DNA from: Candidatus Uhrbacteria bacterium
Lineage (GTDB): Bacteria; Patescibacteriota; Patescibacteriia; UBA9934; GWF2-40-263
Direction of reading: 5' to 3'
Assembly: GCA_016206085.1 (NCBI GenBank)
Contig: JACQSF010000009.1
Location: 9,412 to 73,411 of the forward strand
Length of the DNA stretch: 64,000 bases
A program made the position numbers and the translations under genes. Under the pieces are notes generated by a model that saw only the letters and a list, made by a program, of their open reading frames with translations, ran no database searches and was not told where the DNA came from. Shown here one piece after another: positions 11,465 to 40,046 of the stretch. How positions within the stretch are numbered: the stretch's first letter is position 1; each line of letters starts with the position of its first letter.

Positions 11465-11492
11465 TATAAAAAAGTGACCTACGAGGGGTCAC
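11465..11492 (-). terminator. Rho-independent terminator at the left edge of the high-GC island
   Basis: Hairpin gtgacc-tacgag-ggtcac overlaps the stop codon and is followed on the minus strand by a T-run (plus strand ataaaaaa). Confidence 0.6.
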
Positions 11493-12526
11493 AGCAGATT
11501 GGCACGTTCGCGGCCAATGGTGCGGAAATCGCGGCCGAGGAGTGCCGAGATGAGCGTGATTTCCGCGCTCACGATCGGTGTCGGGATGCTGGTCAGCTCT
11601 CCGATGCGCTCCCAGCACACGAGACCGGCGGCCGTGTCCTCGGTGAGGTAGCGGTGCTCGAGGACGTTCGGCCCCTTGAACCCGGCCGCGCGGCCGCACG
11701 CGAGGAACTCGAGATCCTGTCGCTCGGGCTCGGCCATGGAGCCGGACTTGGAGAACAACCCGCGCAGTTCGTTCCATGCGAGCCCGCGGCCCTCCACCTC
11801 CGCGAGCAGCGTCATGCGCTCCGCATCCTTGCGCCCGAGGAGCGCGCGCACCCCGGGGGTGACCCCGTGCTCGTACATCCGGAAGTCTGGGTCGAGCTCG
11901 ATGCGGCTCGCGGAGAGCAGGCAGGGCGTGGTGTGGAAGAGCGGGTTCGGGTTCGAGAGCAACACGGACTGGACTGTGCCGCCGAACACCGGGTTCGGGG
12001 TCAGGATCGCGAGCATCTCCGCGAGTTCCGGCACGGACGACGGATCGCCCGAGTAGAGCACCGACGGGGTGAGCACGGTAACGCGCGCGACCTCTGCGTC
12101 GTGCGGGGAGATCCGACACCCGTAAGGGAGGGTATTGGCCTCCACGAGCAGCGGCACCCGCGCCTGCGAGCCGAGCCGCCGGAGCAGGAACAGCGAGCCG
12201 AGGTTGCCCGGGAAGTACAGCACCGCGCGGACGGCATCAACGACGGGCGCGAGCATGTCCGCGACCGCCTTGTGCGCGTCGGCCACCGTGGTGACGACCA
12301 CGAAGTCGACACCTTCCACCTGCGAGAGATCGGCCGCGAACGCGACGAACCCCTCGGCACGCAACATCCCGTAGATCCGAACCCCCTTCCCCGCGGCACG
12401 GATATTGTCGAGGCGGTCGATAAATCCTGGCACTTCCGAGAGCGTGACGCGGTACCCGTTGGAAGACAGATGGGCCGCGATGGTGGTGCCGGCGGCGCCA
12501 GCACCGATGATAAGAATGTGAGGCAT
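11489..12526 (-). CDS. NAD(P)-binding dehydrogenase, opine dehydrogenase / ketopantoate-reductase-like
   Basis: N-terminal Rossmann GxGxxG (MPHILIIGAGAAGTTIAAHL), 345 aa, GC-rich codon usage. Confidence 0.5.
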   Translation of the reverse strand: MPHILIIGAGAAGTTIAAHLSSNGYRVTLSEVPGFIDRLDNIRAAGKGVRIYGMLRAEGFVAFAADLSQVEGVDFVVVTTVADAHKAVADMLAPVVDAVRAVLYFPGNLGSLFLLRRLGSQARVPLLVEANTLPYGCRISPHDAEVARVTVLTPSVLYSGDPSSVPELAEMLAILTPNPVFGGTVQSVLLSNPNPLFHTTPCLLSASRIELDPDFRMYEHGVTPGVRALLGRKDAERMTLLAEVEGRGLAWNELRGLFSKSGSMAEPERQDLEFLACGRAAGFKGPNVLEHRYLTEDTAAGLVCWERIGELTSIPTPIVSAEITLISALLGRDFRTIGRERANLL

Positions 12527-12902
12527 CTACTAACTCCAATCAGCAACGGAACCGTATCCATTTTTTGAATAAATGTCAAGGGAATATGAAAAAACCGCCC
12601 GGGATTAGCCGAGCGGGACGAGGATGGCGCAGATCGCCTGCGCGTCCGGGATCACGGTGCGTCCCGCGCAGTTGGGTCGGATCTTCAGCCCGCGCTCGAC
12701 GAGCACCTTGGCGATGGCGAGCGTGTCCGCCCATACCGTGCATGTTATCTCCATCCAGAACTTCGTCTACCAGCGACGACCAATGCTGTTGAGAATACGA
12801 ATGGGCGGATTCGCTCTGTCCTCAATCGTGCTCGTGGGTGTCGGACTCCTGAATCACTCATTCACTGGATCACGGCGTTTCTCTGGTTCCATCCGACAGT
12901 GA

Positions 12903-13283
12903 AATGTCGACCAAAATTACCAACAGAAATTCGGCGTGTATCCCACATATGCCCGAGCCATTCGGACACTGCCAAAGGAACTCGCGAAGTCACTCACCTA
13001 CGACCAAGGGAAAGAAATGAGTGACCACAAAGCGTTTACATTTTCTACCGGCATGAAGGTATACTTCGCTCATCCAAGCAGTCCATGGGAACGTGGCACA
13101 AACGAAAATACCAACGGACTTATTCGTCAGTATTTTCCAAAGGGCACGGACTTCCGTACAGTCTCAACAAAAGAGATTAAGCGGGTACAGCGTCAGTTGA
13201 ATCAACGACCAAGAAAGACGCTCGGCCACCTCACGCCAGAAGAAACCATTAACAATATCGTTGCGTTAAAAGTTGGAAACTAA
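12903..13283 (+). mobile_element. IS30-family transposase C-terminal fragment (remnant/pseudogene)
   Basis: ...YFAHPSSPWERGTNENTNGLIRQYFPKGTDF...LNQRPRKTLG is the conserved IS30 DDE C-terminus. Only about 126 codons are present, an in-frame stop lies at 12900, and no N-terminal HTH/DDE region or inverted repeats were seen. Its low G+C contrasts with the surrounding high-GC DNA. Confidence 0.75.
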
Positions 13284-13302
13284 GTATCAAAAAACCTCCC
13301 CG

Positions 13303-14376
13303 TTACGAGGAGGTTACGATCCAGAGGACGTCGCCGTCCTGAACCGCGTAGTCGCGGCCGACCGTTTGGAAGGTACCGCGGGCGCGGATGGCCTGTTCGC
13401 CGACCTCGCAGATTTGGTCGAGCGAGAACACCTGCGCCTTCAGAAAGGTGCCGAGGAAGTCCGTGTGGATCATTCCGGCGGCCTCGTGCGCCGTGGTTCC
13501 GCAGCGGATGGGCCACGCACGGGTCACGCCCTTGCCGAACGTGTAGAAGGTGACGAGGCCAAGCGTGTCGTAGCAGCCGCGAACCACCTCGTCGACGGAC
13601 CCGTCGACGCCGAGCGATGTACGTAGCTCCGCGCGCTCCGCCACGTCGTCGATGTCCGAGAGTTCGCGCTCGGCGCGGATGCTGAGCGGAATCGCCGGGT
13701 GGCCGAGTGCCTTCTCCCAGTGCGCGCGGTCGAATGGGCCGTTCTCGCCGACGTTCATGACCACGAGCACGGGCTTGAGCGTGAGGAACTCGTAGACGCG
13801 CAGGCGCTCGAGCTCGTCGGGGGTTAGTCCGGCCTCGCGCGCGGTCTTGCGCTCGTCGCGCATGGCGCGCCAGAGCTTCTCGAGCGCGGCGTGCTTCGCG
13901 ATCGAATCCTTGTCGTTGGTGTTGCGCGCGCGGGATTTCTCCGCGATGCGGTACTTGTTGACGAGTGCGAGGTCGGCCATGACCAGCTCCTCGTCGATGA
14001 TCCGGAGGTCGCGCGACGGGTCGACCGAATCCTCCACGTGCGTCACGTCGCCGTCCTCGAAGGCGCGAACCACGTGCAGGATCATGTCCACGCCGCGCAC
14101 GTGCGCGAGGAACTCGTTGCCGAGCCCCACGCCCTGATGCGCGTTGCGAACCAGCCCCGCGATGTCCACGAACTCGATCTGGCTTGCCATGAGCTCCGCG
14201 CAGCCGGTGGCTCGAGCCAGGCGGTCGAGCCGCTCGTCCGGAATCGTGACGATGGAGACGTTCGGTTCGATCGTGCAGAACGCAAAATTCTCCGCGGGCA
14301 CGTTCCGGCGGGTCAGGGCGTTGAAGAGGGTGGACTTCCCGACGTTCGGGAGTCCGACGATTCCGACTCGAAGCAT
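13303..14376 (-). CDS. ychF: Ribosome-binding ATPase YchF (Obg-family GTPase-like, TGS C-terminal domain)
   Basis: GIVGLPNVGKSTLFNALT P-loop plus the characteristic YchF C-terminus. High-GC codon usage. Confidence 0.9.
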   Translation of the reverse strand: MLRVGIVGLPNVGKSTLFNALTRRNVPAENFAFCTIEPNVSIVTIPDERLDRLARATGCAELMASQIEFVDIAGLVRNAHQGVGLGNEFLAHVRGVDMILHVVRAFEDGDVTHVEDSVDPSRDLRIIDEELVMADLALVNKYRIAEKSRARNTNDKDSIAKHAALEKLWRAMRDERKTAREAGLTPDELERLRVYEFLTLKPVLVVMNVGENGPFDRAHWEKALGHPAIPLSIRAERELSDIDDVAERAELRTSLGVDGSVDEVVRGCYDTLGLVTFYTFGKGVTRAWPIRCGTTAHEAAGMIHTDFLGTFLKAQVFSLDQICEVGEQAIRARGTFQTVGRDYAVQDGDVLWIVTSS

Positions 14377-14406
14377 AGGGATTCTCCAGGAAACCGAACT
14401 GACAGT

Positions 14407-14432
14407 GTAGCCAAACCGCGCGACGTTGGCAA
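14407..14432 (-). promoter_or_regulatory. Putative sigma70-type promoter for ychF (TTGCCA-N17-TACACT)
   Basis: Minus-strand read ttgccaacgtcgcgcggtttggctacact lies about 30 nt upstream of the ychF ATG. GGAG Shine-Dalgarno sits 9 nt upstream of the ATG. Confidence 0.35.
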
Positions 14433-14459
14433 GAAAAAAGCCCGAGCTAGCGCTCAGGC
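14431..14459 (-). terminator. Rho-independent terminator ending the tyrS...GATase operon
   Basis: GC-rich hairpin gcctgagcgctagctcgggc followed by TTTTTT on the minus strand. Overlaps the GATase stop codon. Confidence 0.5.
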
Positions 14460-15104
14460 CGTGATGGCATCGAAGAAAAACCGGCTCGCAAACGCCGCCG
14501 CGGGACCGGGATCCGGGAAGCGGTCGTTGTGGAGCTCGGACGGCGCGAGGCCCGCGCCACGGTAGATGCGCTCCGCGTCCGCGGGGCCGATCTCCGGGTG
14601 GTAGGCCGTCGCGAGGATACGATCCCCGACCGCAAACGCCTCCACTGCGTCACGTGGCGAGTCCGCAAGCAGGCGCGCCCCTGGCGGCAGCCGCACGATG
14701 TGGTTGCTGTGGAACTCAAACTGCACGTAACGGGTGCACAGCGGGAACATTCGATGATCCGCGAGCTGACGGATCTCGTTCCACCCGCGCACGGTCTCGC
14801 CGCGCACCACATCTCCTCCGAGCGCGAGCACAATGAGCTGCGCACCGAGGCAGATGCCCACCAGCATGGGCGCGGCCGGATCCGAGGCGAGCGCGCGGAC
14901 GCGGTCAAATTCCTCCTGGATGAACGGATGTCTAGCCCGATCCTCCTCGTTGGCGGACATGGGCCCGCCGCCGAGCATGAGGACATCAAACGACTCCGGA
15001 ACCGTCTCGCCGAGATAGCGCCGGACCACCCTGGAACCGGGAAGCCAGTTCATGAAGGCCGAGCCGCGTTCCGGGGCGAACTCGCAGACAATGATCCGCC
15101 TCAT
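14454..15104 (-). CDS. Class-I glutamine amidotransferase-like protein (GATase1 / gamma-glutamyl hydrolase-like)
   Basis: Nucleophile-elbow motif GICLGAQL. Start taken at MRRIIVCEF, which overlaps the upstream stop by ATGA. Confidence 0.7.
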   Translation of the reverse strand: MRRIIVCEFAPERGSAFMNWLPGSRVVRRYLGETVPESFDVLMLGGGPMSANEEDRARHPFIQEEFDRVRALASDPAAPMLVGICLGAQLIVLALGGDVVRGETVRGWNEIRQLADHRMFPLCTRYVQFEFHSNHIVRLPPGARLLADSPRDAVEAFAVGDRILATAYHPEIGPADAERIYRGAGLAPSELHNDRFPDPGPAAAFASRFFFDAITA

Positions 15105-16411
15105 GATGCACTCCTTTGTACGATGTTCCACCAAGGCGAGCGACCTGTGAGCCGCTCGTACATCTCGGGATACCCTTCACCCCCGCGCTCGATGGTGAGG
15201 TGTCGGCCACTTCCGGTCGTGCGGATCATCCCATACTCATCCTCCGGATCCGGCACCCGGAGGGCGACGATTTTCTCCCAGTCCGGCTCGGCGCCGAGCC
15301 CCTCGCCCGCGAATGCGACAGACCGGCCGTCCTCGGCCGTCTGAAACGCGCCGTGGATCAGGTGTCGCGCACCCGTGAACCAGTCTGACGCCGGCTGCCA
15401 TCCGTCGCACGGGAGCGAGACAGTGCGGAGCACCGACGCGGCGTGCTGGTCGTAGCAGCGACCGATCGCTGTCGGGAAGGTCCCGCCGACGAGGCTTCGC
15501 ACCGGCTGGTCAACGGTGGCCTCGACCGCCAGACGCTCGAGCTCGAGTGACCGACGGATCCCGCCGAGCTTCTGGATCTTCATGTTGAGCCAGACGCCCG
15601 AGCGCGCGAGAACGCGTGCGTCAGACTCGTTGAGGAACGACTCGTCCGCAACCACATGCAGGCCGAATGCATTCCGTGCGATTCGGTGCGCGTACACGAT
15701 TCCCTCGGCGCCGAAGCGCTCGCCAATAGGCTGCTCGCTGAACGCCCAGGTCTCGATCCATGGGATGTCCCGCGCCCACGCGATTACACCCTCCCACTCC
15801 TCCGGTCCGAGCGAGCCGTTGAAGTCCGTGGAAAAGGTGCCCTGCGTCTCGTGTGCGACCTCGGCGGCCGCGTGCAGGACGGTGCTGGTATATTCCATGT
15901 CCGTGCCGCACTTAAACTTGGGCGTGCGCCCGACGGCGAGGATGCGCCCGACGGCCGCGCGGATCGCGGGCTCATTGGCGAGGATACCGACGCTCTCGAG
16001 CACACACCCGCTTCCCGGCCGATGGCCGTACAGGTTGCAGACGTTGGTACCGGTCATGCGCGCGGCGGCTGCATCGAGTGCCATGTTGATGGCCGCCTGC
16101 GTCGCGTATACACCGTCACGCTCGCGCTCGACCCACGCCTCGTCGAGTAGCGTCTCGCGATCCCCGATGCGGCGGCCAACGAGCAGCGCGGAGTGGAGCG
16201 CGAAAATGATGTCCCACGCGTCGTAGTGCGAGAACGGGAAATCGATCGACGCTTCGCCGACGACGGTGAACGGTGCACCCGCGTCCGGCTCCACCGTGAG
16301 GCGGAGCAACACGCGCGGCAGGTCACGTAACGTCCCGAACCCGAGCCGAAACGGCTGGGAAAGCGGGATCGCGAGCAGCAGGATGTCTCTGCTAATGATC
16401 GTAGCGTTCAT
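15101..16411 (-). CDS. Enolase-superfamily enzyme (mandelate racemase / muconate lactonizing enzyme; dipeptide-epimerase-like)
   Basis: 436 aa. N-terminal capping domain, KxK-type motif MKIQKLGGI, barrel-domain acidic residues. Strong AAGGAGGG Shine-Dalgarno upstream. Confidence 0.65.
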   Translation of the reverse strand: MNATIISRDILLLAIPLSQPFRLGFGTLRDLPRVLLRLTVEPDAGAPFTVVGEASIDFPFSHYDAWDIIFALHSALLVGRRIGDRETLLDEAWVERERDGVYATQAAINMALDAAAARMTGTNVCNLYGHRPGSGCVLESVGILANEPAIRAAVGRILAVGRTPKFKCGTDMEYTSTVLHAAAEVAHETQGTFSTDFNGSLGPEEWEGVIAWARDIPWIETWAFSEQPIGERFGAEGIVYAHRIARNAFGLHVVADESFLNESDARVLARSGVWLNMKIQKLGGIRRSLELERLAVEATVDQPVRSLVGGTFPTAIGRCYDQHAASVLRTVSLPCDGWQPASDWFTGARHLIHGAFQTAEDGRSVAFAGEGLGAEPDWEKIVALRVPDPEDEYGMIRTTGSGRHLTIERGGEGYPEMYERLTGRSPWWNIVQRSAS

Positions 16412-16443
16412 CGATCCCTCCTTGATATCTGGAAATATAAAGA

Positions 16444-16489
16444 GCCACTCCGATCTTGGGACGTCTTGAACGTCCTGTCAAGGAGTGGC
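16444..16489 (-). other. Intercistronic stem-loop (8-bp stem gccactcc/ggagtggc enclosing a nested hairpin) between the 293-aa gene and the MR/MLE gene
   Basis: Seen directly. Lies 10 nt after the upstream stop and before the Shine-Dalgarno of the next cistron. No T-tract follows. Confidence 0.3.
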
Positions 16490-16498
16490 CGTTGACTT

Positions 16499-17380
16499 CT
16501 ATGCGAGGATCTGATCGATGAGTGCTTGGACGCGCACGAACACGTCCGTCCCGTGCTGAGGCTGCGATCCGGTGAGCCGGTCCCAGAGACGGAGAATACC
16601 ACCCAAGTGACGCACCAACCCACCCATGGTCTTGTCGGCACCCCAACTAGGCAAAGCTTGCTCGATCTTAGCACGAACATCCTCACCGGGCTTGAACAAG
16701 ATCCGTCGCTCGTCGGCGACCGCGATGTACGGGGACGCCCGCATGCGTTTCGGATCGAGCGTCCGTCCCGCGACCACGTAGGCGAAGGACATGTGCTCGT
16801 CGCAGCGCACGCGGAACTCCCGGTCGTACAGCCGTTCGTCGAAGCCAAGCTCCGACTCGCCCGCCTGGAGGAGCCAGCCGAGCTTCAGACGCACGCTGTG
16901 CGTCTCGCGGTACCAGAGCATGTCCGCGAGCTCGCGGCGCACGTACTCGGCCTTGTCGGTGTGCACGCGCGCGAGGAGCGCCTCGTACTCGTCCGAGCGG
17001 TCGAAGTCACTCGAGAGGCGGACGTCTACCGGGATGTCGGCGGCCCTCGCGATCTTGCCGATCACGTCCCGGTACTCCGCCGCCATGGCCGCGACCACTT
17101 CCGGCGTGCAGAAGGGGTTAGTCAGCGCGTGCGTGTCTGCGATGTGGTGGTAGATGCGGTCGAGCCCCATCAGCCTGCGAAGTCGCTCGGCTCCAAGGAT
17201 GAAGATGAGGATGTCAAACGGAAGCCCGATCGACGGCGAACGCGGGGTGGTCAGACCTGTCCCGTAGTAAACCGATCCGAAGGGTTTCGTGAGAAACGCC
17301 GGATCGATCATGGCGAGCGATGGTTCCGAGTGGAACAGGGGCTCGTTCTGCAAAAAAATCCTGAGTTGATCTTCAGTCAT
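16499..17380 (-). CDS. Hypothetical protein (293 aa) of the island operon
   Basis: Long GC-rich ORF, translationally coupled (ATGA) to the upstream GCS2 gene. No recognisable motif. Confidence 0.5.
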   Translation of the reverse strand: MTEDQLRIFLQNEPLFHSEPSLAMIDPAFLTKPFGSVYYGTGLTTPRSPSIGLPFDILIFILGAERLRRLMGLDRIYHHIADTHALTNPFCTPEVVAAMAAEYRDVIGKIARAADIPVDVRLSSDFDRSDEYEALLARVHTDKAEYVRRELADMLWYRETHSVRLKLGWLLQAGESELGFDERLYDREFRVRCDEHMSFAYVVAGRTLDPKRMRASPYIAVADERRILFKPGEDVRAKIEQALPSWGADKTMGGLVRHLGGILRLWDRLTGSQPQHGTDVFVRVQALIDQILA

Positions 17381-18801
17381 ATGTCTTCGTCCTTGTAGGT
17401 GAGGAAATACTGCCGAAACAAATCACGATCGATCGGTTTATTGCCGATGCTACGCTCTCCCCACATCTGTCGCAAGCTCCGAAACGCGATGTCCGACGGG
17501 CTGCCGAACACGCTGCGGTCTTTCCAAATCTCGCGAACCTGGTCGATCTCCTCGGACGAGGCACCGAGCTCACACATACCATTCTCGGCGAGCTGGGTCT
17601 GCCGTTTCATGACGTCGCGCGCCGACAGACGGACAGGTTCGCCTTCCGTCATCTGCCAGAGCTTGCCGTCCATGCCGAGCGTCATCGCAGACCACCGATT
17701 GTCATGCAGGAGCGGCATGGGCAGGAGCGGGATATCCGCGGCTCGCGCACCAATGACGTGTCCGACGGCGAAGGCGACCATCGCATAGTCCTCGAGCGAG
17801 GTCGGCTGTATGGAAAGCGGCCGAAACTCGAGTACGATCTGCGGATCGGATTCCCCGATGCGAAGAAATTTAATCCGCGCGTCGCGCCAGTACAAGCCGG
17901 TCGCGAGCGGGAACGCCGCCTCCGGGATGTGCAGGATCGACGGCTGGTCGTGGAGATCCTCGAAGTACGCCTCGAGGGTGTGGAAATAGCCCGTCGGGAG
18001 CCCCGTGCGTCCACTCAGGCCACGCGACACCTCCCCAGGAGTACGAATGTCATGACTGAACTCCCACACGATCCCGCGGATGTCCGCGTAACCACTGTCC
18101 ACACCGTCAACGAAGCGCGCGTTTGCACCCATCGCCACGGCGTATGGCCCGGAGACCAACGCCAGATTCAGGAGCTGGAGCGCCTCCTCGGAGGAGTGAC
18201 AATCAAGGTTGTACTGCACGCTCGACATCATCCCCAGTCCGGCTGCGTGGTCGCAACGAATGAGTCCCCCGTCCCGACCGATGAAGGTCGGGAGTCCGTC
18301 TCGACGGTGGCGGCGGTGGAAGTCGGGGACGAGGACGTAGCGATCCTTCGCGCGCTTGGAGCGGCCGCGTTGGTCTGCGTGGACGAGCGGATCGGATCCG
18401 AGGCGCACGATGGAAGCTCCAACCGCGCCAACCCGACTCCGGAGGAGCGAGGTTTCGGAACGGATGGCATTGCGCAACTGACCAAACCCGCCCGCGACCG
18501 TGATGTCGATTGGAGGGGTCATGATCTCAATCTGGGCGGCACCAAGCTCGTATTGGTAGGACGGATACTTCTGAACTAACGCGTTGCGCGTGTCCTCGTC
18601 GAGCGGCTCACCCTCCCGTGTCATACAGGAGAACTCGAGCTCGACGCCGACGCGTCTACCGGTCTTGTTGGATCCGGTGTCGACCGTGCGGTCGAGAATA
18701 GACTCCGCCGTCTCACGGAAGAGCGCACGCATCTCTGGGAAGAACGGATAGAGCGCATCAAAGCGCTCCGCACGACTGGTGGAAAATCGCCGGAACATCA
18801 T
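17377..18801 (-). CDS. Carboxylate-amine ligase, glutamate--cysteine ligase family 2 (GCS2/YbdK-like)
   Basis: Real start MMFRRF... at 18801, with ATGA overlap of the tyrS stop. N-terminal GVELEFS motif is typical of GCS2. The 140-aa Arg-rich N-terminal extension in the listed 614-aa ORF is a GC-rich out-of-frame read through tyrS. Confidence 0.65.
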   Translation of the reverse strand: MMFRRFSTSRAERFDALYPFFPEMRALFRETAESILDRTVDTGSNKTGRRVGVELEFSCMTREGEPLDEDTRNALVQKYPSYQYELGAAQIEIMTPPIDITVAGGFGQLRNAIRSETSLLRSRVGAVGASIVRLGSDPLVHADQRGRSKRAKDRYVLVPDFHRRHRRDGLPTFIGRDGGLIRCDHAAGLGMMSSVQYNLDCHSSEEALQLLNLALVSGPYAVAMGANARFVDGVDSGYADIRGIVWEFSHDIRTPGEVSRGLSGRTGLPTGYFHTLEAYFEDLHDQPSILHIPEAAFPLATGLYWRDARIKFLRIGESDPQIVLEFRPLSIQPTSLEDYAMVAFAVGHVIGARAADIPLLPMPLLHDNRWSAMTLGMDGKLWQMTEGEPVRLSARDVMKRQTQLAENGMCELGASSEEIDQVREIWKDRSVFGSPSDIAFRSLRQMWGERSIGNKPIDRDLFRQYFLTYKDEDI

Positions 18802-20084
18802 GCACCCTCCTGAGCGTTGATAATGAAACGGACGAACGTGCGCTTGCCGACGCGCACGTCCTGCTGCGTCCCGGGAGCCGGAACGGGATCGGACTGCTTC
18901 ATCACCTGATCCGCACCCGCGGTCACCAGGTGGACGCCGCCGCCGTCGAGCAGTCGGCGCGCGTCGGAGTTGCTCGCGGCCTGCGTGATGCCGAGCGCCC
19001 GCAGGAGGGTGATCCAGGTGGCTGCCTTGCCCGCGGGAACCTGCACGACCGGAAGGTCGGCAGGCACTTCCTTCTCGACGATGCGCCGACGGAAGTCCTC
19101 GTCGGCCGCGTCGGCCGCCGCGAGACCGTTGAGATCCGCGACGACGACTCGCGCGAGTAATCGCTTCGCGTTGCGCGGATGTACAGAGCCGTTCACGATG
19201 GCCGCGGCGAGTTCGTCCCACTGAGCGTCGCGCATGTCTGTGAGCAACTTGAAGTACGACTCCACCTGCGCGTCCGGGATGGACATAATCTTGCCGAACA
19301 TGTCCACCGGGTCGGCGGTGACTGGGATGTAGTTGCCTAGCGACTTCGACATCTTGTGCCCGTCACCCGTGGTGCCTAGCAGAATGTCGGTTGTGATCGC
19401 GGACTCCGGCGATAATCCCTCGTTCTCCATCACACGCTCGGTGGTGTAAAAGTTGAGAAGTTGATCGTCACCGCCGAGCTCGATCTCACTCTTGAGTTCG
19501 ACCGAGTCGATGGCCATGAGGAGCGCGTAGAGCATCTCGGCGACCGTGACGGACTCACGCTTGCGGAAGTCGTCGCGTTGCATCGCCATCGAGACGTTGA
19601 TGCCGCGACACACGGTAAAAAACCGCGCCAGCTTGAACACATCGAGCCACTCGCTGTTGAACCGAACCTCGGTGCGCTTCAGGTCGAGGATCTTCCCCGC
19701 CTGCGCTGCGAAGAGCTCCGCGTTGGCGCGAATCTCGGCGGACGAGAGCACAGGACGGGTCGACACGCGACCGGTCGGATCCCCTACCTGGGCGGTGAAG
19801 TCGCCGATGAGTAGCACAACGTGGTGGCCCATGTTCTGCAGGCGGCGCAGCACGAACAGCGGAACCGCATGGCCGAGATGAATGTCCTTGGCCGTGGCGT
19901 CGATGCCGTACTTCACGCGTAGCCCGCGTCCTTCCTTGCGGGCGATCACGAGGGTTGCGCGTAGACGATCCTCGCCGACGATGTGCTTAGCGCGCTCCTT
20001 AAGCAGCGCGAGCTGTTCGTCCGGCGTCAATCCGGAAAGGTTCGGATGCTCGAGCAACGAGCGTTCCAGTGCCTGAATGTCCAT
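18798..20084 (-). CDS. tyrS: Tyrosine--tRNA ligase
   Basis: HIGH-like GHAVPL and KMSKS motifs, C-terminal S4-like domain. Start likely MDIQALERS (20084). G+C drops sharply immediately upstream of the start. Confidence 0.9.
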   Translation of the reverse strand: MDIQALERSLLEHPNLSGLTPDEQLALLKERAKHIVGEDRLRATLVIARKEGRGLRVKYGIDATAKDIHLGHAVPLFVLRRLQNMGHHVVLLIGDFTAQVGDPTGRVSTRPVLSSAEIRANAELFAAQAGKILDLKRTEVRFNSEWLDVFKLARFFTVCRGINVSMAMQRDDFRKRESVTVAEMLYALLMAIDSVELKSEIELGGDDQLLNFYTTERVMENEGLSPESAITTDILLGTTGDGHKMSKSLGNYIPVTADPVDMFGKIMSIPDAQVESYFKLLTDMRDAQWDELAAAIVNGSVHPRNAKRLLARVVVADLNGLAAADAADEDFRRRIVEKEVPADLPVVQVPAGKAATWITLLRALGITQAASNSDARRLLDGGGVHLVTAGADQVMKQSDPVPAPGTQQDVRVGKRTFVRFIINAQEGA

Positions 20085-20249
20085 GTTGTTTTTCCTTTTC
20101 ATAAAAAACAAATTGTGAAAGAACGACAAAAAACGCTATCAATTTCCTCAAAAAGTGTCAACAAAGTAAATCGAGACCGCTGAAATATGCTCTCCATACC
20201 TGATTCGGAATGTTCCTCAATTTTTTTCTGATCGGTTGATACGGACATA

Positions 20250-28509: not shown

Positions 28510-29784
28510 ATGAGGATTGCGTTACACATAGGAATAGGGGTATTCATACTTCTTTTATCATTTCCCACTCATGTCGAAGCGGCAAGTGTCTGCACCTGTA
28601 CGTACACAAGAACATCTATCTCCTCAGGAACCACCTCAAGTGAAAACACCTACGACGTTTCAACCTACGAAGGGGCAACCATCACCAGTGACACGAGCTG
28701 TCAACTGGGATGTAGCGCATGGGCTGATGGAAAAACCACAGACTCAGGAGGAACGCTCCTGTACACCATTACGAACACATCCTACGCCGCTACTACCACA
28801 ACCACACCTGCACCCACGACGACATCCACTCCGACAGTAACCAGCCGACCCTTGCTCACACCAACTCTCTCAGTTGATATTCCCACGGTGACGTTTACTG
28901 ATGCCTTTATCAAAAATGATGTTCTCAATATAAACTACTTGGGCGATTACATCGCTGGCGTCTATAAGTACCTCTTAGGCATTGCGACTACGATTGCGAT
29001 TGTCATGATCATGGTGAGCGGATTGCAGTGGACGTTGGGGGGAACCACTCCGGAAGCCATCGGCAAAGCACAAACACGAATCAAGAATGCGGTAACGGGA
29101 CTTGTTCTTTTACTTTGCACATACCTTATTCTTTCCATCGTCAATCCTAATCTTATCAATCTTCAATTCCCGACACTTGAAATCATTCAATACGAAGCCC
29201 TGGTGGCAGACTCTGGAGATGCGACAGGAACGACATCCACAGAAAACCTTGCTGCTGCCGGTATTGATTGTCCTGGATCGGGTGATGTGGCCACCATTGC
29301 AAAATCATTTCTTGGGAAAACAACCTATCGAACCGGAGGAAAGGGTGGTGGAGCCCCATATAGTGCCGAGAAAAAAATCGATTCTTCTGGGAGACCTTAT
29401 TCGGAATATTGTCCGGAAGGGACGGTGTGCTTAGATTGTTCCGGGTTTGTTGGAATCGTTGCTCAGTGTGCAGGACTCGCATCCAAAAATGAAAGTAGTG
29501 GAACCGCTGGAATTTTTGCTTCCGCTCCCCGTATCACCTCGTGTGGAACAGATATAGTCACACTTGAAAGTGGTAACACATTCACTCTTACGGCTGGCGA
29601 CCTTGTTGGATTTAAGGCAGGTGAGTATTCAAAAAATCCTAAAAATGGACATGTCTGGATGTATATTGGTAATGGAACTCTCATCAATAGTGTTGGTTCA
29701 GGACGTATCTCGGGAACAGCCGTTATCACGCAGTCCCTCGAATCCGCCTGCCAAACATTCCCTTTACGGTTTATTGCTCGTTAA
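28510..29784 (+). CDS. Secreted/membrane NlpC/P60-family cell-wall peptidase with Thr-rich linker and two hydrophobic helices
   Basis: Signal peptide. Thr/Ser/Pro-rich stalk, two TM helices. C-terminal catalytic Cys in LDCSGFV and His in GHVWMYIGNG, typical of NlpC/P60. Confidence 0.6.
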   Translation: MRIALHIGIGVFILLLSFPTHVEAASVCTCTYTRTSISSGTTSSENTYDVSTYEGATITSDTSCQLGCSAWADGKTTDSGGTLLYTITNTSYAATTTTTPAPTTTSTPTVTSRPLLTPTLSVDIPTVTFTDAFIKNDVLNINYLGDYIAGVYKYLLGIATTIAIVMIMVSGLQWTLGGTTPEAIGKAQTRIKNAVTGLVLLLCTYLILSIVNPNLINLQFPTLEIIQYEALVADSGDATGTTSTENLAAAGIDCPGSGDVATIAKSFLGKTTYRTGGKGGGAPYSAEKKIDSSGRPYSEYCPEGTVCLDCSGFVGIVAQCAGLASKNESSGTAGIFASAPRITSCGTDIVTLESGNTFTLTAGDLVGFKAGEYSKNPKNGHVWMYIGNGTLINSVGSGRISGTAVITQSLESACQTFPLRFIAR

Positions 29785-33295: not shown

Positions 33296-33372
33296 TGGTG
33301 CACCCGGCAGGACTTGAACCTACGACCCTCAGCTCCGCAAGCTGATGCTCTATCCAACTGAGCTACGGGTGC
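33296..33372 (-). tRNA. tRNA-Arg (anticodon read as GCG), CCA encoded
   Basis: Cloverleaf folded by hand: acceptor GCACCCG/CGGGTGC, D-stem GCTC/GAGC, anticodon stem TCAGC/GCTGA with loop TTGCGGA, T-stem GTAGG/CCTGC, 3' CCA. Confidence 0.8.
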
Positions 33373-34016: not shown

Positions 34017-34105
34017 GGAGAGGTACCCAAGTGGTTGAAGGGGACGGTTTGCTAAATCGTTAGGGGCGAAAGCCCGCGAGGGTTCGAATCCCTCCCTCTC
34101 CGCCA
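34017..34105 (+). tRNA. tRNA-Ser (anticodon GCU), long variable arm, CCA encoded
   Basis: GGAGAGGTACCCAAGTGG..., anticodon loop TTGCTAA, long variable arm, 3' CCA. Confidence 0.85.
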
Positions 34106-34131: not shown

Positions 34132-34220
34132 GGAGAGGTGGCCGAGTGGTTGAAGGCAACAGTCTTGAAAACTGTCGAGGTGAATAGCCTCCGTGAGTTC
34201 GAATCTCACCCTCTCCGCCA
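34132..34220 (+). tRNA. tRNA-Ser (anticodon UGA), long variable arm, CCA encoded
   Basis: GGAGAGGTGGCCGAGTGG..., anticodon loop CTTGAAA, long variable arm, 3' CCA. Confidence 0.85.
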
Positions 34221-34951: not shown

Positions 34952-35502
34952 GTGTCTACCTCCTTCACAAAAGTTAAGATGATGTCCTGGTACTTTACCG
35001 TCACGTTTTGGGTCGATCCAATCGCTTCTTCACGCTGAGTCGTAACCGTCACCAAAGCCGTGCCTGCCGTCTCATCTTCTTGTTGAACCTTCACGGTCAC
35101 AATGCTTGTGGTCACGCCATAGTATTCCTCGGGTGCCTTCTGGGTATCAACAATGTTTTGAAGCTGTGCGGCAAATGAGGCACTCGTCAGTGGAATCACG
35201 TCTGCAAGGTTGGCAAAATGTGCCTCATTTGAATAACTCCCATACCGTGTCACAAATGACTTAGAAAGGGAAACAACTTCCGCGGACGTCGTGCGCGTTT
35301 CCCGTTCTTCCTCCAACTCCTGCTCGGAAATTGTGGGTCGCGTCGGGAGAACCTCTTGTCCCTGCGGCGCCTGCACCACCTCTTCCACTTGCGGCTCCTC
35401 TTCGCCCCCAGAAAAAAGGATCCACAAAAACCAGATCAACAACAAGAAAAGAGCCAAGAGAATAAGGGCAATAATCGTCAATCGTTTTCTTCGAGTCATC
35501 AT
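34921..35502 (-). CDS. Hypothetical membrane-anchored protein
   Basis: N-terminal TM helix, acidic linker. ATGA-coupled to upstream virB4. Confidence 0.4.
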   Translation of the reverse strand: MMTRRKRLTIIALILLALFLLLIWFLWILFSGGEEEPQVEEVVQAPQGQEVLPTRPTISEQELEEERETRTTSAEVVSLSKSFVTRYGSYSNEAHFANLADVIPLTSASFAAQLQNIVDTQKAPEEYYGVTTSIVTVKVQQEDETAGTALVTVTTQREEAIGSTQNVTVKYQDIILTFVKEVDTWKVDSAIWQ

Positions 35503-37507: not shown

Positions 37508-38206
37508 CTATTTTTCAGAAACGAATGATGATTCTTCAAACTGTACCTGACGTATATCCACAAGCTTCTGTGTATCAAACACATTGGGATTATAGACCGT
37601 ATAATAGAGTTCAATGAGTCCTTGGGTATCCAAACGTGCGGAAGAAAGACCCATACTATTGAGTTGCCCTTGAGTGATTTCAAGTCGACGAGAGAGCTGT
37701 TCCATGCGATCCGCCAGCTGTTTCTTGTTCAGTTTAGCAGCCGCCGCTGGAGAAAGGGCTTCGGTGAATCTTGTCCAAAAATTTTTCTTCTTGTTTGTGA
37801 GCGGGTCGTATGGCACAACAAGATAAAACATTTTCTGCATGATCTGACCTAGCTCGACTAACTCCGTTACGAACGCCCGATAATCGAAAATCTGATTACG
37901 CAGAAGGTCATTTTCCACGACTCGTTCGCGTTCACGCAATCGATTCATATACGCATCAATATTCATGCGGCGTGACTGAATCACAATCTGGATGGGATAC
38001 GCCAGGGAATTCAGAAACGTCATGTAGGCCTGAATGATGGCTTCCTGTTCGTCCGCGGATTTAAGCGCGAAGTTAATGCTTGAAACCAAAAGCACGGCGC
38101 GCACCGTCCCGTCATTGAGAAGTACCATGTCATCACGAATCTCGGCGATGTCCAAAAATCGTTCCGTTGATGATCCTGGTTTTGGCTTGGCAAGTTTATG
38201 GGCCAT
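37508..38206 (-). CDS. Hypothetical protein in the T4SS-like operon
   Basis: ORF directly upstream of virB4. Start uncertain (MAHKL...). Confidence 0.4.
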   Translation of the reverse strand: MAHKLAKPKPGSSTERFLDIAEIRDDMVLLNDGTVRAVLLVSSINFALKSADEQEAIIQAYMTFLNSLAYPIQIVIQSRRMNIDAYMNRLRERERVVENDLLRNQIFDYRAFVTELVELGQIMQKMFYLVVPYDPLTNKKKNFWTRFTEALSPAAAAKLNKKQLADRMEQLSRRLEITQGQLNSMGLSSARLDTQGLIELYYTVYNPNVFDTQKLVDIRQVQFEESSFVSEK

Positions 38207-38720: not shown

Positions 38721-38732
38721 CTCTGTAGTGTA

Positions 38733-40043: not shown

Positions 40044-40046
40044 ACA

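What the first reader, a model, noticed from the sequence alone, without database searches (positions are those of the whole stretch)
14454..20084. Translationally coupled operon: tyrS -> GCS2 ligase -> unknown 293 aa -> MR/MLE epimerase-like -> GATase1-like
Five minus-strand genes are linked by 4-nt ATGA start/stop overlaps, all verified by hand: tyrS/GCS2 at 18798-18801, GCS2/293-aa at 17377-17380, MR/MLE/GATase at 15101-15104. There is one short intercistronic stem-loop at 16444-16489 followed by a strong AAGGAGGG Shine-Dalgarno. A terminator at 14431-14459 ends the operon, and ychF downstream has its own promoter.

An aminoacyl-tRNA synthetase cotranscribed and coupled with three enzymes of amide-bond chemistry is not a standard housekeeping arrangement. 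Those enzymes are an ATP-grasp-like gamma-glutamyl-type ligase, an enolase-superfamily dipeptide-epimerase-like enzyme, and a Cys-nucleophile amidotransferase/gamma-glutamyl hydrolase-like protein.

One inference is a small-molecule pathway, for example gamma-glutamyl-amine or dipeptide formation, epimerisation and hydrolysis. In that scheme the TyrRS would supply Tyr-tRNA or act as a self-resistance / extra-copy synthetase. The 293-aa protein has no recognisable motif. I checked for and did not find the cyclodipeptide-synthase GxSxGNS pocket.
Basis: partly seen in the sequence, partly recalled or inferred. Interest (0 to 1): 0.8.

Follow-up and report, generated by a model that had tools for sequence, protein, structure and literature searches.

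The report
TyrRS operon with hidden TyrRS-like paralogue
A tyrosyl-tRNA synthetase gene in an ultra-small (CPR) bacterium is co-transcribed with an undescribed, catalytically stripped copy of the synthetase fold and with enzymes that look built to flip an amino acid between L and D forms; the module recurs across CPR bacteria and DPANN archaea and points to an unknown layer of tyrosine/tRNA handling.

Summary
In detail: five minus-strand genes at 14454-20084, three ATGA overlaps, a stem-loop, a Shine-Dalgarno site and a terminator all sit at the stated coordinates.

The source is a Candidatus Uhrbacteria (CPR) chromosome, not an actinobacterium. The genes lie in an 8.6-kb block that is 13 GC points richer than its flanks.

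The "unknown 293-aa" protein is a TyrRS/TrpRS-fold paralogue that I call YRSL.
- It lacks the HIGH and KMSKS motifs and has no Pfam, NCBIfam or PDB sequence hit.
- The family has about 540 clusters at 50% identity in CPR and DPANN.
- At least five proteins fuse it to genuine TyrRS, in both domain orders.

In 37 informative loci:
- tyrS is adjacent in 30.
- A racemase or epimerase is adjacent in 31.
- Partner sets interchange: GCS2 ligase + MR/MLE + GATase1 (15 loci, including this window); tandem-GNAT + MR/MLE + M15 peptidase (10); a plain amino-acid racemase (5).
- A YbaK-like editing domain lies between YRSL and tyrS in 2 (4 loci counting shorter contigs).

Best reading (about 0.45): acylate, epimerise, deacylate stereoinversion of tyrosine or an analogue, coupled to TyrRS/Tyr-tRNA quality control through YRSL. 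No biochemistry exists, and I found no literature on this family.

The parts
18798..20084 (-). tyrS: bacterial type-2 (KMSKS-type) tyrosyl-tRNA synthetase, 428 aa, with HLGH and KMSKS motifs intact
   Evidence: TIGR00234 scores 250.6 bits against a cutoff of 113.8, and PF00579 gives E 7e-57. Motifs are shown. It groups with the tyrS genes of other type-A clusters at 41-67% identity.
17377..18801 (-). GCS2-family carboxylate-amine ligase-like protein, 474 aa; its start overlaps the tyrS stop (ATGA)
   Evidence: PF04107 scores 37.5 bits. All NCBIfam equivalogs fall far below their cutoffs. A family profile hits plant glutamate-cysteine ligase and YbdK in the PDB. The search returned 25 proteins (24 besides the window's own); the two that carry taxon names are Candidatus Uhrbacteria and 'bacterium'.
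16499..17380 (-).
16431..16490 (-). Conserved two-tier hairpin (stem 16443-16490) plus U-rich tail between YRSL and MR/MLE: an internal terminator- or attenuator-like element
   Evidence: Its free energy is -25 kcal/mol with z -4.5. Equivalent hairpins with U tracts but different stem sequences occur in 6 other orthologous loci. The simple terminator scan missed it because the loop exceeds 8 nt.
16416..16423 (-). Shine-Dalgarno AAGGAGGG for the MR/MLE gene
   Evidence: Read directly from the sequence.
15101..16411 (-). Enolase-superfamily, MLE-subgroup racemase/epimerase-like protein, 436 aa
   Evidence: PF13378 scores 37.6 bits. It aligns over most of its length with muconate cycloisomerase 3i6e (residues 4-382) and L-Ala-D/L-Glu epimerase YkfB 1jpm (residues 9-331), with the KxK, Asp, Glu, Asp and Lys positions conserved.
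14454..15104 (-). Class-I glutamine amidotransferase / peptidase C26-like protein, 216 aa, with Cys (GICLGAQ) and His-x-Glu (YHPE)
   Evidence: PF00117 scores 47.3 bits and PF07722 25.6 bits. It aligns with the stand-alone GATase1 TM1158 (1o1y), including the nucleophile elbow and H-x-E.
14431..14460 (-). Intrinsic-terminator-like hairpin and T-run ending the MR/MLE-GATase unit
13303..14376 (-). ychF (ribosome-associated ATPase), part of the same GC-rich block and a recurrent neighbour of the module
   Evidence: TIGR00092 scores 344 bits against a cutoff of 279. ychF is adjacent in both type-A and type-B clusters.
12936..13283 (+). Truncated transposase (integrase-core, rve_3) fragment inside the block; I read it as IS30-like by eye
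   Evidence: PF13683 gives only a weak hit. Sequence shown.
12623..12736 (-). Remnant of an HMGL-like (isopropylmalate/homocitrate-synthase-like) gene that is intact at this position in relatives
   Evidence: tblastn finds 76% identity to residues 72-109 of the L007 protein. The gene is intact in L007, L011 and L039.
11489..12526 (-). Opine (octopine/nopaline) dehydrogenase-family protein, the last gene of the GC-rich block
   Evidence: PF02317 scores 95.8 bits. It recurs beside type-A clusters in L005, L007, L010, L011, L030 and L039.
11470..20100 (.). Compositionally distinct block: 63% GC against 50% in the rest of the window
   Evidence: The same excess occurs in relatives L007 (+11.5 points) and L011 (+9.0), but not in most other lineages.

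Best explanation
This is a conserved module of CPR bacteria, shared with some DPANN archaea. Here it sits on a laterally mobile GC-rich block in a Candidatus Uhrbacteria chromosome.

Shown:
- The tyrS gene looks catalytically complete.
- The 293-aa protein (YRSL) is a TyrRS/TrpRS-fold paralogue without HIGH or KMSKS. It is genomically tied to tyrS and is sometimes fused to it.
- The MR/MLE protein has the full two-base racemase/epimerase residue set.
- The GATase1 protein has a Cys-His-Glu triad.
- In other lineages the GCS2 ligase + GATase1 pair is swapped as a pair for a tandem-GNAT acyltransferase + M15 peptidase.
- In still others the whole trio is replaced by a plain amino-acid racemase.

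Inferred mechanism:
- The ligase attaches a gamma-glutamyl (acyl) handle to an amino acid.
- The enolase-superfamily enzyme inverts its alpha-carbon.
- The amidohydrolase removes the handle.
- The net result is ATP-driven D/L stereoinversion.
- The amino acid is most likely tyrosine or a close analogue, because of the TyrRS/YRSL linkage.
- YRSL works physically with TyrRS on tyrosine or Tyr-tRNA. It could recognise or deacylate D-Tyr- or analogue-charged tRNATyr, or hand substrate between the two.
- Together this would form a tyrosine chirality and quality-control unit for cells that scavenge amino acids from hosts.

A conserved internal hairpin with a U tract probably sets different expression levels for tyrS-GCS2-YRSL and MR/MLE-GATase.
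For: Fold of YRSL:
- AF2 pLDDT 95.
- The top 50 Foldseek hits are all TyrRS.

Link to TyrRS:
- Fusions occur in both domain orders: P0147, P0148, P0182, P0245 and a 761-aa ORF in L021.
- tyrS lies within the locus in 30 of 37 informative loci.

Link to stereoinversion:
- A racemase or epimerase is adjacent in 31 of 37 loci: MR/MLE in 26, asp_race-type racemase in 5.
- MR/MLE retains KxK, D, E, D and K when aligned to YkfB epimerase.
- The GATase triad is present.

Link to editing and amino-acid sensing:
- A YbaK-like tRNA_edit domain lies between YRSL and tyrS in L020, L023, L073 and L074.
- Lrp/AsnC regulators sit upstream in the DPANN loci.

Precedents:
- The acylate-racemise-deacylate D-to-L pathway with N-succinylamino acid racemase (Sakai et al. 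2006, cited in PMC12006748).
- D-Tyr toxicity through TyrRS, countered by D-aminoacyl-tRNA deacylase or a selective second TyrRS (PMC11005379).

The conserved hairpin is shown.
Against: - There is no biochemical evidence. Substrate identity is inferred only from gene linkage.
- Mapping of TyrRS pocket residues onto YRSL is by eye and from a non-significant hhalign (probability 2.6%), so a retained tyrosine pocket is not demonstrated.
- Every hit of the GCS2 and MR/MLE proteins to a characterised equivalog falls far below cutoff, so the gamma-glutamyl-Tyr intermediate is a guess.
- The model does not explain the co-transferred opine dehydrogenase, the HMGL-like gene or ychF.
- Four loci with two tyrS copies fit a dedicated-supply model as well as they fit this one.
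- I could not test whether these genomes lack the D-aminoacyl-tRNA deacylase gene (dtd).
- YRSL has lost the motifs that class I synthetases need for adenylation, and no alternative catalytic residue has been identified.
Confidence: 0.45

Rival explanations
1. Small-molecule or peptide biosynthesis. TyrRS supplies Tyr-tRNA to YRSL, which acts as a tRNA-dependent transferase like a cyclodipeptide synthase. The ligase, epimerase, amidase, opine dehydrogenase and HMGL-like enzyme then tailor a Tyr-containing product. The cluster tyrS would be a dedicated or self-resistance copy.
For: - YRSL shares the CDPS/TyrRS fold. By eye it has a Tyr-x3-Glu pair where TyrRS has Tyr-x3-Gln; the comparison with CDPS residues is from memory.
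- Two tyrS genes occur in L019, L031, L059 and L091.
- The block is compositionally foreign and so mobile.
- Opine dehydrogenase and the HMGL-like gene travel with it.
- An EamA transporter lies in L025.
- The type-B GNAT resembles Fem-type and tRNA-dependent peptide synthases among other GNATs.
Against: - The module is found across many CPR phyla and DPANN with minimal genomes, usually between the housekeeping genes tyrS and ychF.
- The partner set can collapse to a single amino-acid racemase or to a YbaK-like editing domain. Neither fits a fixed biosynthetic product.
- YRSL is much closer to full-length TyrRS than to CDPS, and I did not find the CDPS GxS nucleophile motif in the aligned region (sequence).
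- In the window the HMGL-like gene is already destroyed.
Confidence: 0.2
2. Peptidoglycan stem-peptide recycling or D-Glu handling. MR/MLE would be an L-Ala-D/L-Glu-type dipeptide epimerase, and GATase1/M15/S66 would be gamma-glutamyl or D-amino-acid peptidases. tyrS and YRSL would be neighbours only through inherited synteny.
For: - MR/MLE aligns with B. subtilis YkfB L-Ala-D/L-Glu epimerase.
- M15 (VanX/VanY-like) and S66 (LD-carboxypeptidase) peptidases are neighbours.
- In the Kaiserbacteria locus YRSL sits beside a Mur ligase/PBP/MraW/MraZ cluster.
Against: - The module, including GCS2, MR/MLE and GATase, occurs in loci assigned to DPANN archaea, which lack murein to my knowledge.
- The racemase partner is asp_race type, not MurI.
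- YRSL-TyrRS fusions and the YbaK-like domain tie YRSL to tRNA(Tyr) biology, not to murein.
Confidence: 0.12
3. YRSL is a non-catalytic pseudo-subunit or regulator of TyrRS, forming a pseudo-dimer as in the double-length Leishmania TyrRS. The ligase, epimerase and amidase would be functionally unrelated passengers.
For: - Both class-I signature motifs are lost.
- Natural fusions to TyrRS occur in both orders.
Against: - About 30 invariant residues, mostly polar, are conserved across 55 diverse members. This pattern suggests a catalytic or specific ligand site rather than a decayed one.
- YRSL occurs without an adjacent tyrS but with a racemase in 5 informative loci.
- GCS2 lies between tyrS and YRSL, and its stop overlaps the YRSL start.
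- YRSL is nearest in structure to archaeal/eukaryotic-type TyrRS, while the partner TyrRS matches the bacterial tyrS model, so a canonical dimer interface is not obvious.
Confidence: 0.15
4. The operon is a fortuitous arrangement of unrelated genes, or an assembly chimera.
For: The GC jump at both block edges could suggest a chimeric contig.
Against: The same GC-rich block sits in low-GC flanks in independent assemblies (L007, L011). The gene order is conserved in dozens of loci.
Confidence: 0.02

Closest known systems
Cyclodipeptide synthases (CDPS; AlbC, Rv2275)
   Different: - The CDPS GxS nucleophile motif is absent.
- YRSL is not linked to CDPS tailoring enzymes.
- Its partner genes are epimerases or racemases and TyrRS itself.
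Double-length pseudo-dimeric TyrRS of Leishmania (PDB 3p0h)
   Same: One active TyrRS module is joined to a degenerate TyrRS-like module. Natural YRSL-TyrRS fusions mimic this layout.
   Different: - In the window the two are separate genes with a ligase gene between them.
- YRSL is a distinct, deeply diverged family with many invariant polar residues.
- The fusions occur in both orders.
- The partner TyrRS is of the bacterial type.
N-succinylamino-acid racemase pathway for D-to-L amino-acid conversion (Sakai et al. 2006; cited in PMC12006748)
   Same: It uses the same logic: an N-acylating enzyme, an MLE-subgroup enolase-superfamily racemase, and a stereospecific deacylase.
   Different: - The acylating enzyme here is a GCS2 ATP-dependent ligase (a tandem GNAT in Saccharibacteria), not a succinyl-CoA GNAT.
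- The deacylase is a GATase1/C26-type or M15 enzyme, not an M20 enzyme.
- The module is linked to an aaRS and an aaRS paralogue.
- Its activity has not been tested.
D-Tyr quality control: D-aminoacyl-tRNA deacylase (DTD) and the selective second TyrRS TyrZ of B. subtilis (PMC11005379, citing Williams-Wagner 2015)
   Same: It shares the theme of protecting tRNATyr charging from D-Tyr. A second tyrS copy occurs in four related loci. A YbaK-like editing domain lies between YRSL and tyrS in four loci.
   Different: YRSL has no similarity to DTD folds. No deacylase activity has been shown. The window holds a single tyrS, and the dtd status of the genome is unknown.
Puu-type gamma-glutamylation/deglutamylation (PuuA/PuuD) and EgtA/EgtC
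   Same: A gamma-glutamyl handle is installed by a ligase and removed by an amidotransferase-like hydrolase (from established knowledge of those pathways).
   Different: The ligase family differs (GCS2, not the GS-like PuuA). An epimerase is inserted between the two steps. The substrate is unknown.

Membership tests
Tyrosyl-tRNA synthetase (gene 18798-20084) | Equivalog HMM score above the curated cutoff over the full length, including the C-terminal tRNA-binding region | tested here: met
   TIGR00234 scores 250.6 bits against a cutoff of 113.8, covering residues 22-422 of 428.
Tyrosyl-tRNA synthetase (gene 18798-20084) | HIGH and KMSKS class-I signature motifs | tested here: met
   HLGH and KMSKS are present, as in all type-A cluster TyrRS.
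Tyrosyl-tRNA synthetase (gene 18798-20084) | Tyr-specific aminoacylation of tRNATyr; sole or housekeeping copy in the genome | not testable with these tools
   This needs biochemistry and the whole genome. There is only one tyrS in the 64-kb window.
Class Ic aaRS (TyrRS/TrpRS), applied to the 293-aa YRSL protein | Rossmann catalytic fold with class Ic topology | tested here: met
   [not shown]
Class Ic aaRS (TyrRS/TrpRS), applied to the 293-aa YRSL protein | HIGH motif | tested here: not met
   The region after strand 1 reads S-I-G-L-P-F-D, with invariant G, P, F and D and no His. The collinear hhalign places IGLP opposite HLGH (low confidence).
Class Ic aaRS (TyrRS/TrpRS), applied to the 293-aa YRSL protein | KMSKS motif | tested here: not met
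   The corresponding loop reads GRTLDPKRMRASPY (family consensus GRTFD.SRPKASPY); no KMSKS is present.
Class Ic aaRS (TyrRS/TrpRS), applied to the 293-aa YRSL protein | Match to the family sequence profile (PF00579 / TIGR00234 / TIGR00233) | tested here: not met
   There is no Pfam or NCBIfam hit and no TyrRS/TrpRS PDB sequence hit even with a profile at E<=10 (the only hit was an unrelated short-chain dehydrogenase at E 2.2). hhalign against TyrRS is not significant.
Cyclodipeptide synthase, applied to YRSL | CDPS-sized (about 220-250 aa) Rossmann-only architecture, with CDPS as best structural match | tested here: not met
   [not shown]
Cyclodipeptide synthase, applied to YRSL | Catalytic Ser in the GxS pocket motif | tested here: not met
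The equivalent segment is Y-Y-G-T-G-L-T-T, with G40 and G42 invariant. The position mapping is by eye.
GCS2 / glutamate-cysteine ligase family 2 (gene 17377-18801) | Pfam family score above the gathering cutoff | tested here: met
   PF04107 scores 37.5 bits against 21, but only over residues 191-247. The profile hits plant GCL and YbdK.
GCS2 / glutamate-cysteine ligase family 2 (gene 17377-18801) | Membership of a characterised equivalog (GshA, EgtA, YbdK) | tested here: not met
   All NCBIfam hits score 17-32 bits against cutoffs of 176-463.
Enolase superfamily, MLE subgroup (gene 15101-16411) | KxK on strand 2, Asp/Glu/Asp metal ligands, Lys on strand 6 | tested here: met
   The alignment to 1jpm and 3i6e pairs tpKfKcg, stDfNg, sEQP, vADES and nmKiqKlGG with the template residues.
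Enolase superfamily, MLE subgroup (gene 15101-16411) | Specific function (dipeptide epimerase, NSAR/OSBS or cycloisomerase) | tested here: inconclusive
   The best equivalog hits score 19-21 bits against cutoffs of 335-400. Identity to characterised enzymes is too low to transfer specificity.
Class I glutamine amidotransferase / peptidase C26 (gene 14454-15104) | Cys-His-Glu triad in a GATase1 fold | tested here: met
   PF00117 scores 47.3 bits. GICLGAQ and YHPE align with TM1158.
Class I glutamine amidotransferase / peptidase C26 (gene 14454-15104) | A cognate synthase partner (true amidotransferase) as opposed to a stand-alone hydrolase | tested here: inconclusive
   The domain is stand-alone. 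Its replacement by an M15 peptidase in type-B clusters favours a hydrolase role, but a GCS2+GATase amidation pair cannot be excluded.
Acylate-racemise-deacylate amino-acid stereoinversion pathway (NSAR type) | Co-located N-acylating enzyme, MLE-subgroup racemase and deacylase | tested here: met
   Type A has GCS2 + MR/MLE + GATase1 in 15 loci. Type B has tandem-GNAT + MR/MLE + M15 in 10 loci.
Acylate-racemise-deacylate amino-acid stereoinversion pathway (NSAR type) | Demonstrated racemisation of an N-acyl amino acid and stereospecific deacylation | not testable with these tools
   Enzyme assays are required.
T-box-regulated aaRS operon | T-box leader upstream of tyrS | tested here: not met
   The Rfam gathering-threshold scan of the whole window finds only three tRNAs.

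The most novel reading that the evidence does not exclude
YRSL is a new functional class of TyrRS-derived enzyme that acts on aminoacyl-tRNATyr. It could be a fourth, unrelated type of D-aminoacyl-tRNA deacylase or chirality checkpoint, or a tRNA-dependent tyrosyl transferase. It would work in a complex with TyrRS and be coupled to an ATP-driven gamma-glutamyl-handle racemisation route. On this reading the module is an innovation of ultra-small episymbionts (CPR and DPANN), exchanged between the two domains.
Probability: 0.25. Interest if true: 0.88.

Novelty: new variant of a known kind. Interest (0 to 1): 0.74.

Why it matters
Paralogues of aminoacyl-tRNA synthetases have repeatedly turned out to be new enzymes: cyclodipeptide synthases, MshC, GluQRS, PoxA and HisZ.

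What is new here:
- This is a large family (about 540 clusters at 50% identity) of TyrRS-fold proteins with no Pfam or NCBIfam model and no literature that I could find.
- Named hits are mostly CPR bacteria and DPANN archaea, two radiations whose biology is mostly unknown.
- It is physically fused to TyrRS in several lineages.
- It is always embedded in racemase/epimerase or tRNA-editing contexts.

If the stereoinversion/quality-control reading is right, it would reveal two things:
- How minimal, scavenging cells cope with D-amino acids, or tyrosine analogues, taken from hosts.
- A new "gamma-glutamyl handle" racemisation route.

If YRSL is instead a tRNA-dependent transferase, it would be a second CDPS-like invention from the same fold.

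Either way the hypotheses are directly testable with four small soluble proteins and with the genetic system now available for Saccharibacteria.

Tried and rejected
Sequence-level searches for YRSL found nothing useful:
- Pfam and NCBIfam gave no hit.
- PDB phmmer and profile hmmsearch gave no relevant hit.
- hhalign of the YRSL profile against the window TyrRS, and against a 23-sequence TyrRS profile, was not significant. The first run of the latter was spoiled by a fused sequence in the target alignment and was repeated.

Other negative results:
- BLASTP of the 397-aa protein against GCS2 found nothing.
- No T-box or other Rfam element lies upstream of tyrS.
- No att-like direct repeats lie at the block edges; only short, chance-level repeats turned up.
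- RNAalifold on the MAFFT alignment of the YRSL-MR/MLE gaps predicted no pairs because the variable loops misaligned. Folding each sequence singly showed the hairpins.
- Literature searches found nothing relevant. The topics were TyrRS-like or pseudo-TyrRS proteins, aaRS paralogues in CPR/DPANN, and DTD in CPR.

Ideas considered and rejected:
- Actinobacterial origin: the homologues with taxon names are mostly CPR or DPANN (a few MAG contigs carry other labels).
- Assembly chimera: the same island occurs in independent assemblies.
- The Kaiserbacteria racemase as MurI: it is asp_race type.

Not possible with the tools or caps:
- Scanning whole genomes for a second tyrS or for dtd.
- Multimer structure prediction.
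- Access to model coordinates to map invariant residues.

Full report
**1. Observation**

Five minus-strand ORFs occupy 14454-20084:
- tyrS, 18798-20084
- a GCS2-like gene, 17377-18801
- a 293-aa ORF, 16499-17380
- an MR/MLE-like gene, 15101-16411
- a GATase1 gene, 14454-15104

I read the three ATGA start/stop overlaps directly from the sequence at 18798-18801, 17377-17380 and 15101-15104. AAGGAGGG lies 4 nt upstream of the MR/MLE ATG. A hairpin with a T-run follows the GATase stop at 14431-14460.

The domain assignments hold. tyrS passes the curated equivalog cutoff (TIGR00234, 250.6 against 113.8 bits) and carries HLGH and KMSKS. GCS2, MR_MLE_C and GATase pass their Pfam cutoffs only weakly. 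The 293-aa protein matches nothing in Pfam or NCBIfam, and nothing relevant in PDB sequences.

**2. Where the window comes from**

The 293-aa protein is 100% identical to HY626_01565 of a Candidatus Uhrbacteria MAG. The rest of the window looks like an ordinary CPR chromosome. It carries DnaE, PheT/PheS, RseP, PGM, LemA, HtpX, ClpB, RadA, RecG, SerRS and type-IV-like secretion genes.

The genes of interest sit in an 8.6-kb block (about 11470-20100) of 63% GC against 50% for the flanks. The block also holds:
- ychF
- a truncated transposase fragment (12936-13283)
- a 38-codon remnant of an HMGL-like gene (12623-12736)
- an opine-dehydrogenase gene (11489-12526)

An independent groundwater assembly, 82% identical (L007), shows the same GC-rich block in about 50% GC flanks. 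There the HMGL-like gene is intact and the neighbours differ. L011 shows +9 GC points. Most other lineages show the module at native GC.

So the block is real, not a chimera. It appears to move as a unit, tyrS and ychF included, among CPR lineages. I found no att-like repeats at its edges.

**3. The "unknown" protein is a TyrRS-fold paralogue (YRSL)**

An AF2 model built on 55 homologues is very confident (pLDDT 95, pTM 0.93).
- The top 50 Foldseek PDB hits are all TyrRS (E about 1e-8).

At the sequence level the relationship is undetectable. The motifs are nevertheless collinear:
- Y-Y-G-T-G...S-I-G-L-P-F-D sits where TyrRS has Y-G-x-D-P-T...H-L-G-H.
- H-H-I-A-D-T-H-A-x-x-N sits where class Ic enzymes have (A/G)-D-x-(H/T)-A.
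- G-F-D-E-R sits where they have G-x-D-Q.
- G-R-T-x-D...R-x-K-A-S-P-Y sits in the KMSKS loop.

This mapping comes from the family alignment and a non-significant hhalign, so it is an inference. HIGH and KMSKS as such are absent. About 30 positions, mostly polar, are invariant across 55 diverse members. That argues for a specific ligand or catalytic site rather than a decayed one.

**4. Size and spread of the family**

An exhaustive profile search finds 537 clusters at 50% identity with E<=1e-3, and 226 with E<=1e-30.

Named members are CPR: Uhr-, Kaiser-, Kerfeld-, Berkel-, Gottesman- and Woesebacteria, Microgenomates and Saccharimonadales. At about 34% identity there are also DPANN archaea: Nanobdellati, Micrarchaeia and Woesearchaeota. 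A few contigs carry other MAG labels (Gammaproteobacteria, Anaerolineae). Those that include flanking genes carry CPR-type clusters, so they are probably mis-binned. I did not verify this.

**5. Link to TyrRS**

Several proteins fuse YRSL to a bona fide TyrRS:
- P0147 and the 761-aa ORF of L021 have the order TyrRS then YRSL.
- P0148, P0182 and P0245 have the order YRSL then TyrRS.
- The two I inspected, P0147 and P0245, have plausible linkers, and the TyrRS parts belong to different subtypes (KMSKS type and KFGK type).

I pooled species-representative genomes, metagenome contigs and exact-protein look-ups. This gave 70 distinct YRSL loci, of which 37 have at least 3 kb on both sides. Among those 37, tyrS lies within the locus in 30. 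Four loci carry two tyrS genes (L019, L031, L059, L091).

**6. Link to stereochemistry**

Of the 37 loci, 31 carry a racemase or epimerase next to YRSL. Three partner sets recur.

- Type A (15 loci, including the window) has GCS2 ligase, MR/MLE and GATase1. The usual order is tyrS-GCS2-YRSL-MR/MLE-GATase, often followed by ychF, the HMGL-like gene and OctDH. It reaches at least one DPANN locus, L025. There the four genes follow an Lrp/AsnC regulator and precede an EamA transporter; a HisC-like aminotransferase and a bacterial-type tyrS lie nearby.
- Type B (10 loci, Saccharibacteria-like) reads ychF - 397-aa protein - MR/MLE - M15 peptidase - YRSL - tyrS. The 397-aa protein had no Pfam hit. 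Its AF2 model (pLDDT 92) is GNAT-fold; the secondary-structure layout suggests two GNAT-like halves, and matches include tandem-GNAT enzymes such as FemX, MshD, Eis and a tRNA-dependent peptide synthase.
- Type C (5 loci, CPR and DPANN) has YRSL next to an asp_race-type PLP-independent amino-acid racemase that passes the TIGR00035 cutoff. It is not MurI.

A further four loci read YRSL - YbaK-like aminoacyl-tRNA editing domain - tyrS (L020, L023, L073, L074).

The window's MR/MLE protein aligns over most of its length with muconate cycloisomerase and with B. subtilis YkfB L-Ala-D/L-Glu epimerase. It conserves KxK, the three metal ligands and the second catalytic Lys. This residue set fits a two-base 1,1-proton-transfer enzyme, although cycloisomerases and OSBS share it. 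The GATase has the nucleophile elbow Cys and H-x-E.

**7. Internal regulatory element**

The 87-nt gap between YRSL and MR/MLE is not just a spacer. It folds into a 48-nt two-tier hairpin (16443-16490, -25 kcal/mol, z -4.5) followed by CUCUUUAUAUUU.

All seven orthologous gaps that I folded form long stable hairpins followed by U-rich tracts (z -3.9 to -7.2). The stems differ: GGCCACUCC/GGAGUGGCC, GGCAGCA/UGCUGCC and GAACCAUC/GGUGGUUC-type.

This looks like a conserved internal terminator or attenuator, or a processing and stability element. It separates tyrS-GCS2-YRSL from MR/MLE-GATase.

In four of the seven loci a TTGACA-N16/17-(C/T)AAGAT-like pattern lies inside the hairpin, so an internal promoter is possible. 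That rests on consensus only.

**8. Most likely mechanism**

The ligase + amidohydrolase pair is replaced as a pair by acyltransferase + peptidase, always around the same epimerase family. The whole trio can also be replaced by a simple racemase. This pattern is best explained if the three enzymes together invert an amino acid: install an acyl (here gamma-glutamyl) handle, epimerise, remove the handle.

The logic has a characterised precedent. In the N-succinylamino-acid racemase pathway, a GNAT, an MLE-subgroup racemase and a deacylase convert D- to L-amino acids (Sakai et al. 2006, cited in PMC12006748).

The persistent linkage and fusion to TyrRS, plus the YbaK-like editing domain, point to tyrosine or a Tyr analogue and to tRNATyr charging. 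TyrRS is known to charge D-Tyr. Cells counter this with D-aminoacyl-tRNA deacylase or with a more selective second TyrRS (PMC11005379).

I therefore propose a tyrosine chirality and quality-control module. In it, YRSL acts with TyrRS on Tyr or Tyr-tRNA, and the trio recycles the wrong enantiomer.

Shown: the folds, catalytic residue sets, synteny, fusions and hairpin conservation. Inferred: the substrate, the direction of the reaction, and the role of YRSL. My confidence is about 0.45.

**9. Rivals**

- A tRNA-dependent biosynthetic pathway with a dedicated or self-resistance TyrRS (0.2). Duplicated tyrS genes, block mobility and the co-transferred OctDH/HMGL genes favour it. Its spread through minimal genomes and the collapse of the partner set to a lone racemase or editing domain count against it.
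- Murein-peptide recycling (0.12). YkfB-like, M15 and S66 neighbours favour it. DPANN occurrence and the fusions count against it.
- YRSL as an inert pseudo-subunit of TyrRS, as in Leishmania (0.15). The fusions and lost motifs favour it. Strong active-site-like conservation and tyrS-independent racemase pairing count against it.
- Chance or assembly chimera is excluded.

**10. Novelty**

I found no Pfam or NCBIfam model and no paper describing this family or module. The closest known entities are listed here.
- Cyclodipeptide synthases have the same ancestral fold and the same motif loss, but a different architecture and context.
- The pseudo-dimeric Leishmania TyrRS is another.
- The NSAR stereoinversion pathway is the closest in logic.
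- DTD/TyrZ D-Tyr control is the closest in theme.

I rate this a new variant of known kinds: a new aaRS-paralogue family plus a new enzyme combination for an acylate-epimerise-deacylate route. Function is unproven.

**11. Limits**

- Whole genomes could not be scanned for a second tyrS or for dtd.
- No multimer prediction or model coordinates were available.
- The pocket-residue mapping is not statistically supported.
- Some loci may be redundant samples of close relatives, although loci whose YRSL coding sequences were identical were merged.

Noticed in passing
window 11470-20100: An 8.6-kb block of 63% GC sits in a roughly 50% GC chromosome and runs from the OctDH terminator to the tyrS start codon. 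The same excess occurs in relatives L007 (+11.5 points) and L011 (+9.0), but not in most other lineages. This suggests block transfer of tyrS through OctDH among CPR bacteria.
   Followed up: partly
window 12595-13302: A truncated transposase fragment (12936-13283, + strand; IS30-like by eye) lies next to a 38-codon remnant (12623-12736, - strand) of an isopropylmalate/homocitrate-synthase-like (HMGL-like) gene. That gene is intact between ychF and OctDH in L007, L011 and L039. An orphan terminator-like hairpin remains at 12595-12616.
   Followed up: partly
window 16431-16490 and the orthologous gaps in L005-L011: A long hairpin plus U tract is conserved between YRSL and MR/MLE, with different stem sequences in different lineages. 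In four loci a TTGACA-N16/17-xAAGAT pattern lies inside it, which could be an internal promoter overlapping a terminator.
   Followed up: partly
L019 5248-6552 and 12710-13912; L031 4462-5706 and 5728-6951; L059; L091: Two full-length tyrS genes lie in or next to the module. In L031 there is one of each bacterial subtype (KMGKT type and KFGKT type). In L019 a prephenate dehydratase gene lies between the two copies.
   Followed up: partly
L020 1567-2079; L023 8910-9386; L073; L074: A free-standing YbaK/ProX-type aminoacyl-tRNA editing domain (PF04073) is encoded between YRSL and tyrS.
   Followed up: partly
L025 7425-15293; L028; L029; L026: Contigs assigned to DPANN archaea carry YRSL. L025 has the whole GCS2-MR/MLE-GATase set plus a bacterial-type tyrS (TIGR00234, 282 bits), an Lrp/AsnC regulator, an EamA transporter and a HisC-like aminotransferase. 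This suggests inter-domain transfer between CPR and DPANN. I did not independently verify the archaeal assignment of these contigs, apart from an archaeal-type CCA-adding enzyme in L026.
   Followed up: partly
L014, L016, L018, L027, L029 (record titles): Several YRSL-bearing contigs sit in MAGs labelled Anaerolineae, Gammaproteobacteria, Pseudomonadales or Methanosarcinales. Those with enough flanking sequence (L016, L018, L027, L029) carry CPR/DPANN-type gene clusters. Mis-binning is likely.
   Followed up: no
P0149 (581 aa): A predicted protein joins an N-terminal GNAT (Acetyltransf_6, PF13480) domain to a YRSL domain. The C-terminal part looks frameshifted, so the fusion may be a gene-calling artefact.
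   Followed up: no
L030 10282-11148: A peptidase S66 (LD-carboxypeptidase-like) gene directly follows the GATase gene of a type-A cluster.
   Followed up: no
window 52495-62460 (- strand): A giant 3321-aa ORF. I did not analyse it.
   Followed up: no
window 28510-29784 and 35499-37505: Type-IV-secretion-like genes on the host-GC part of the window: a T4SS-pilin/NlpC-P60 fusion protein and a TraG/VirB4-like ATPase. Several large ORFs with no Pfam hit lie nearby (37508-42815).
   Followed up: no
window 33296-33372, 34017-34105, 34132-34220: tRNA-Arg(GCG), tRNA-Ser(GCU) and tRNA-Ser(UGA). No tRNA-Tyr lies near the tyrS module.
   Followed up: no
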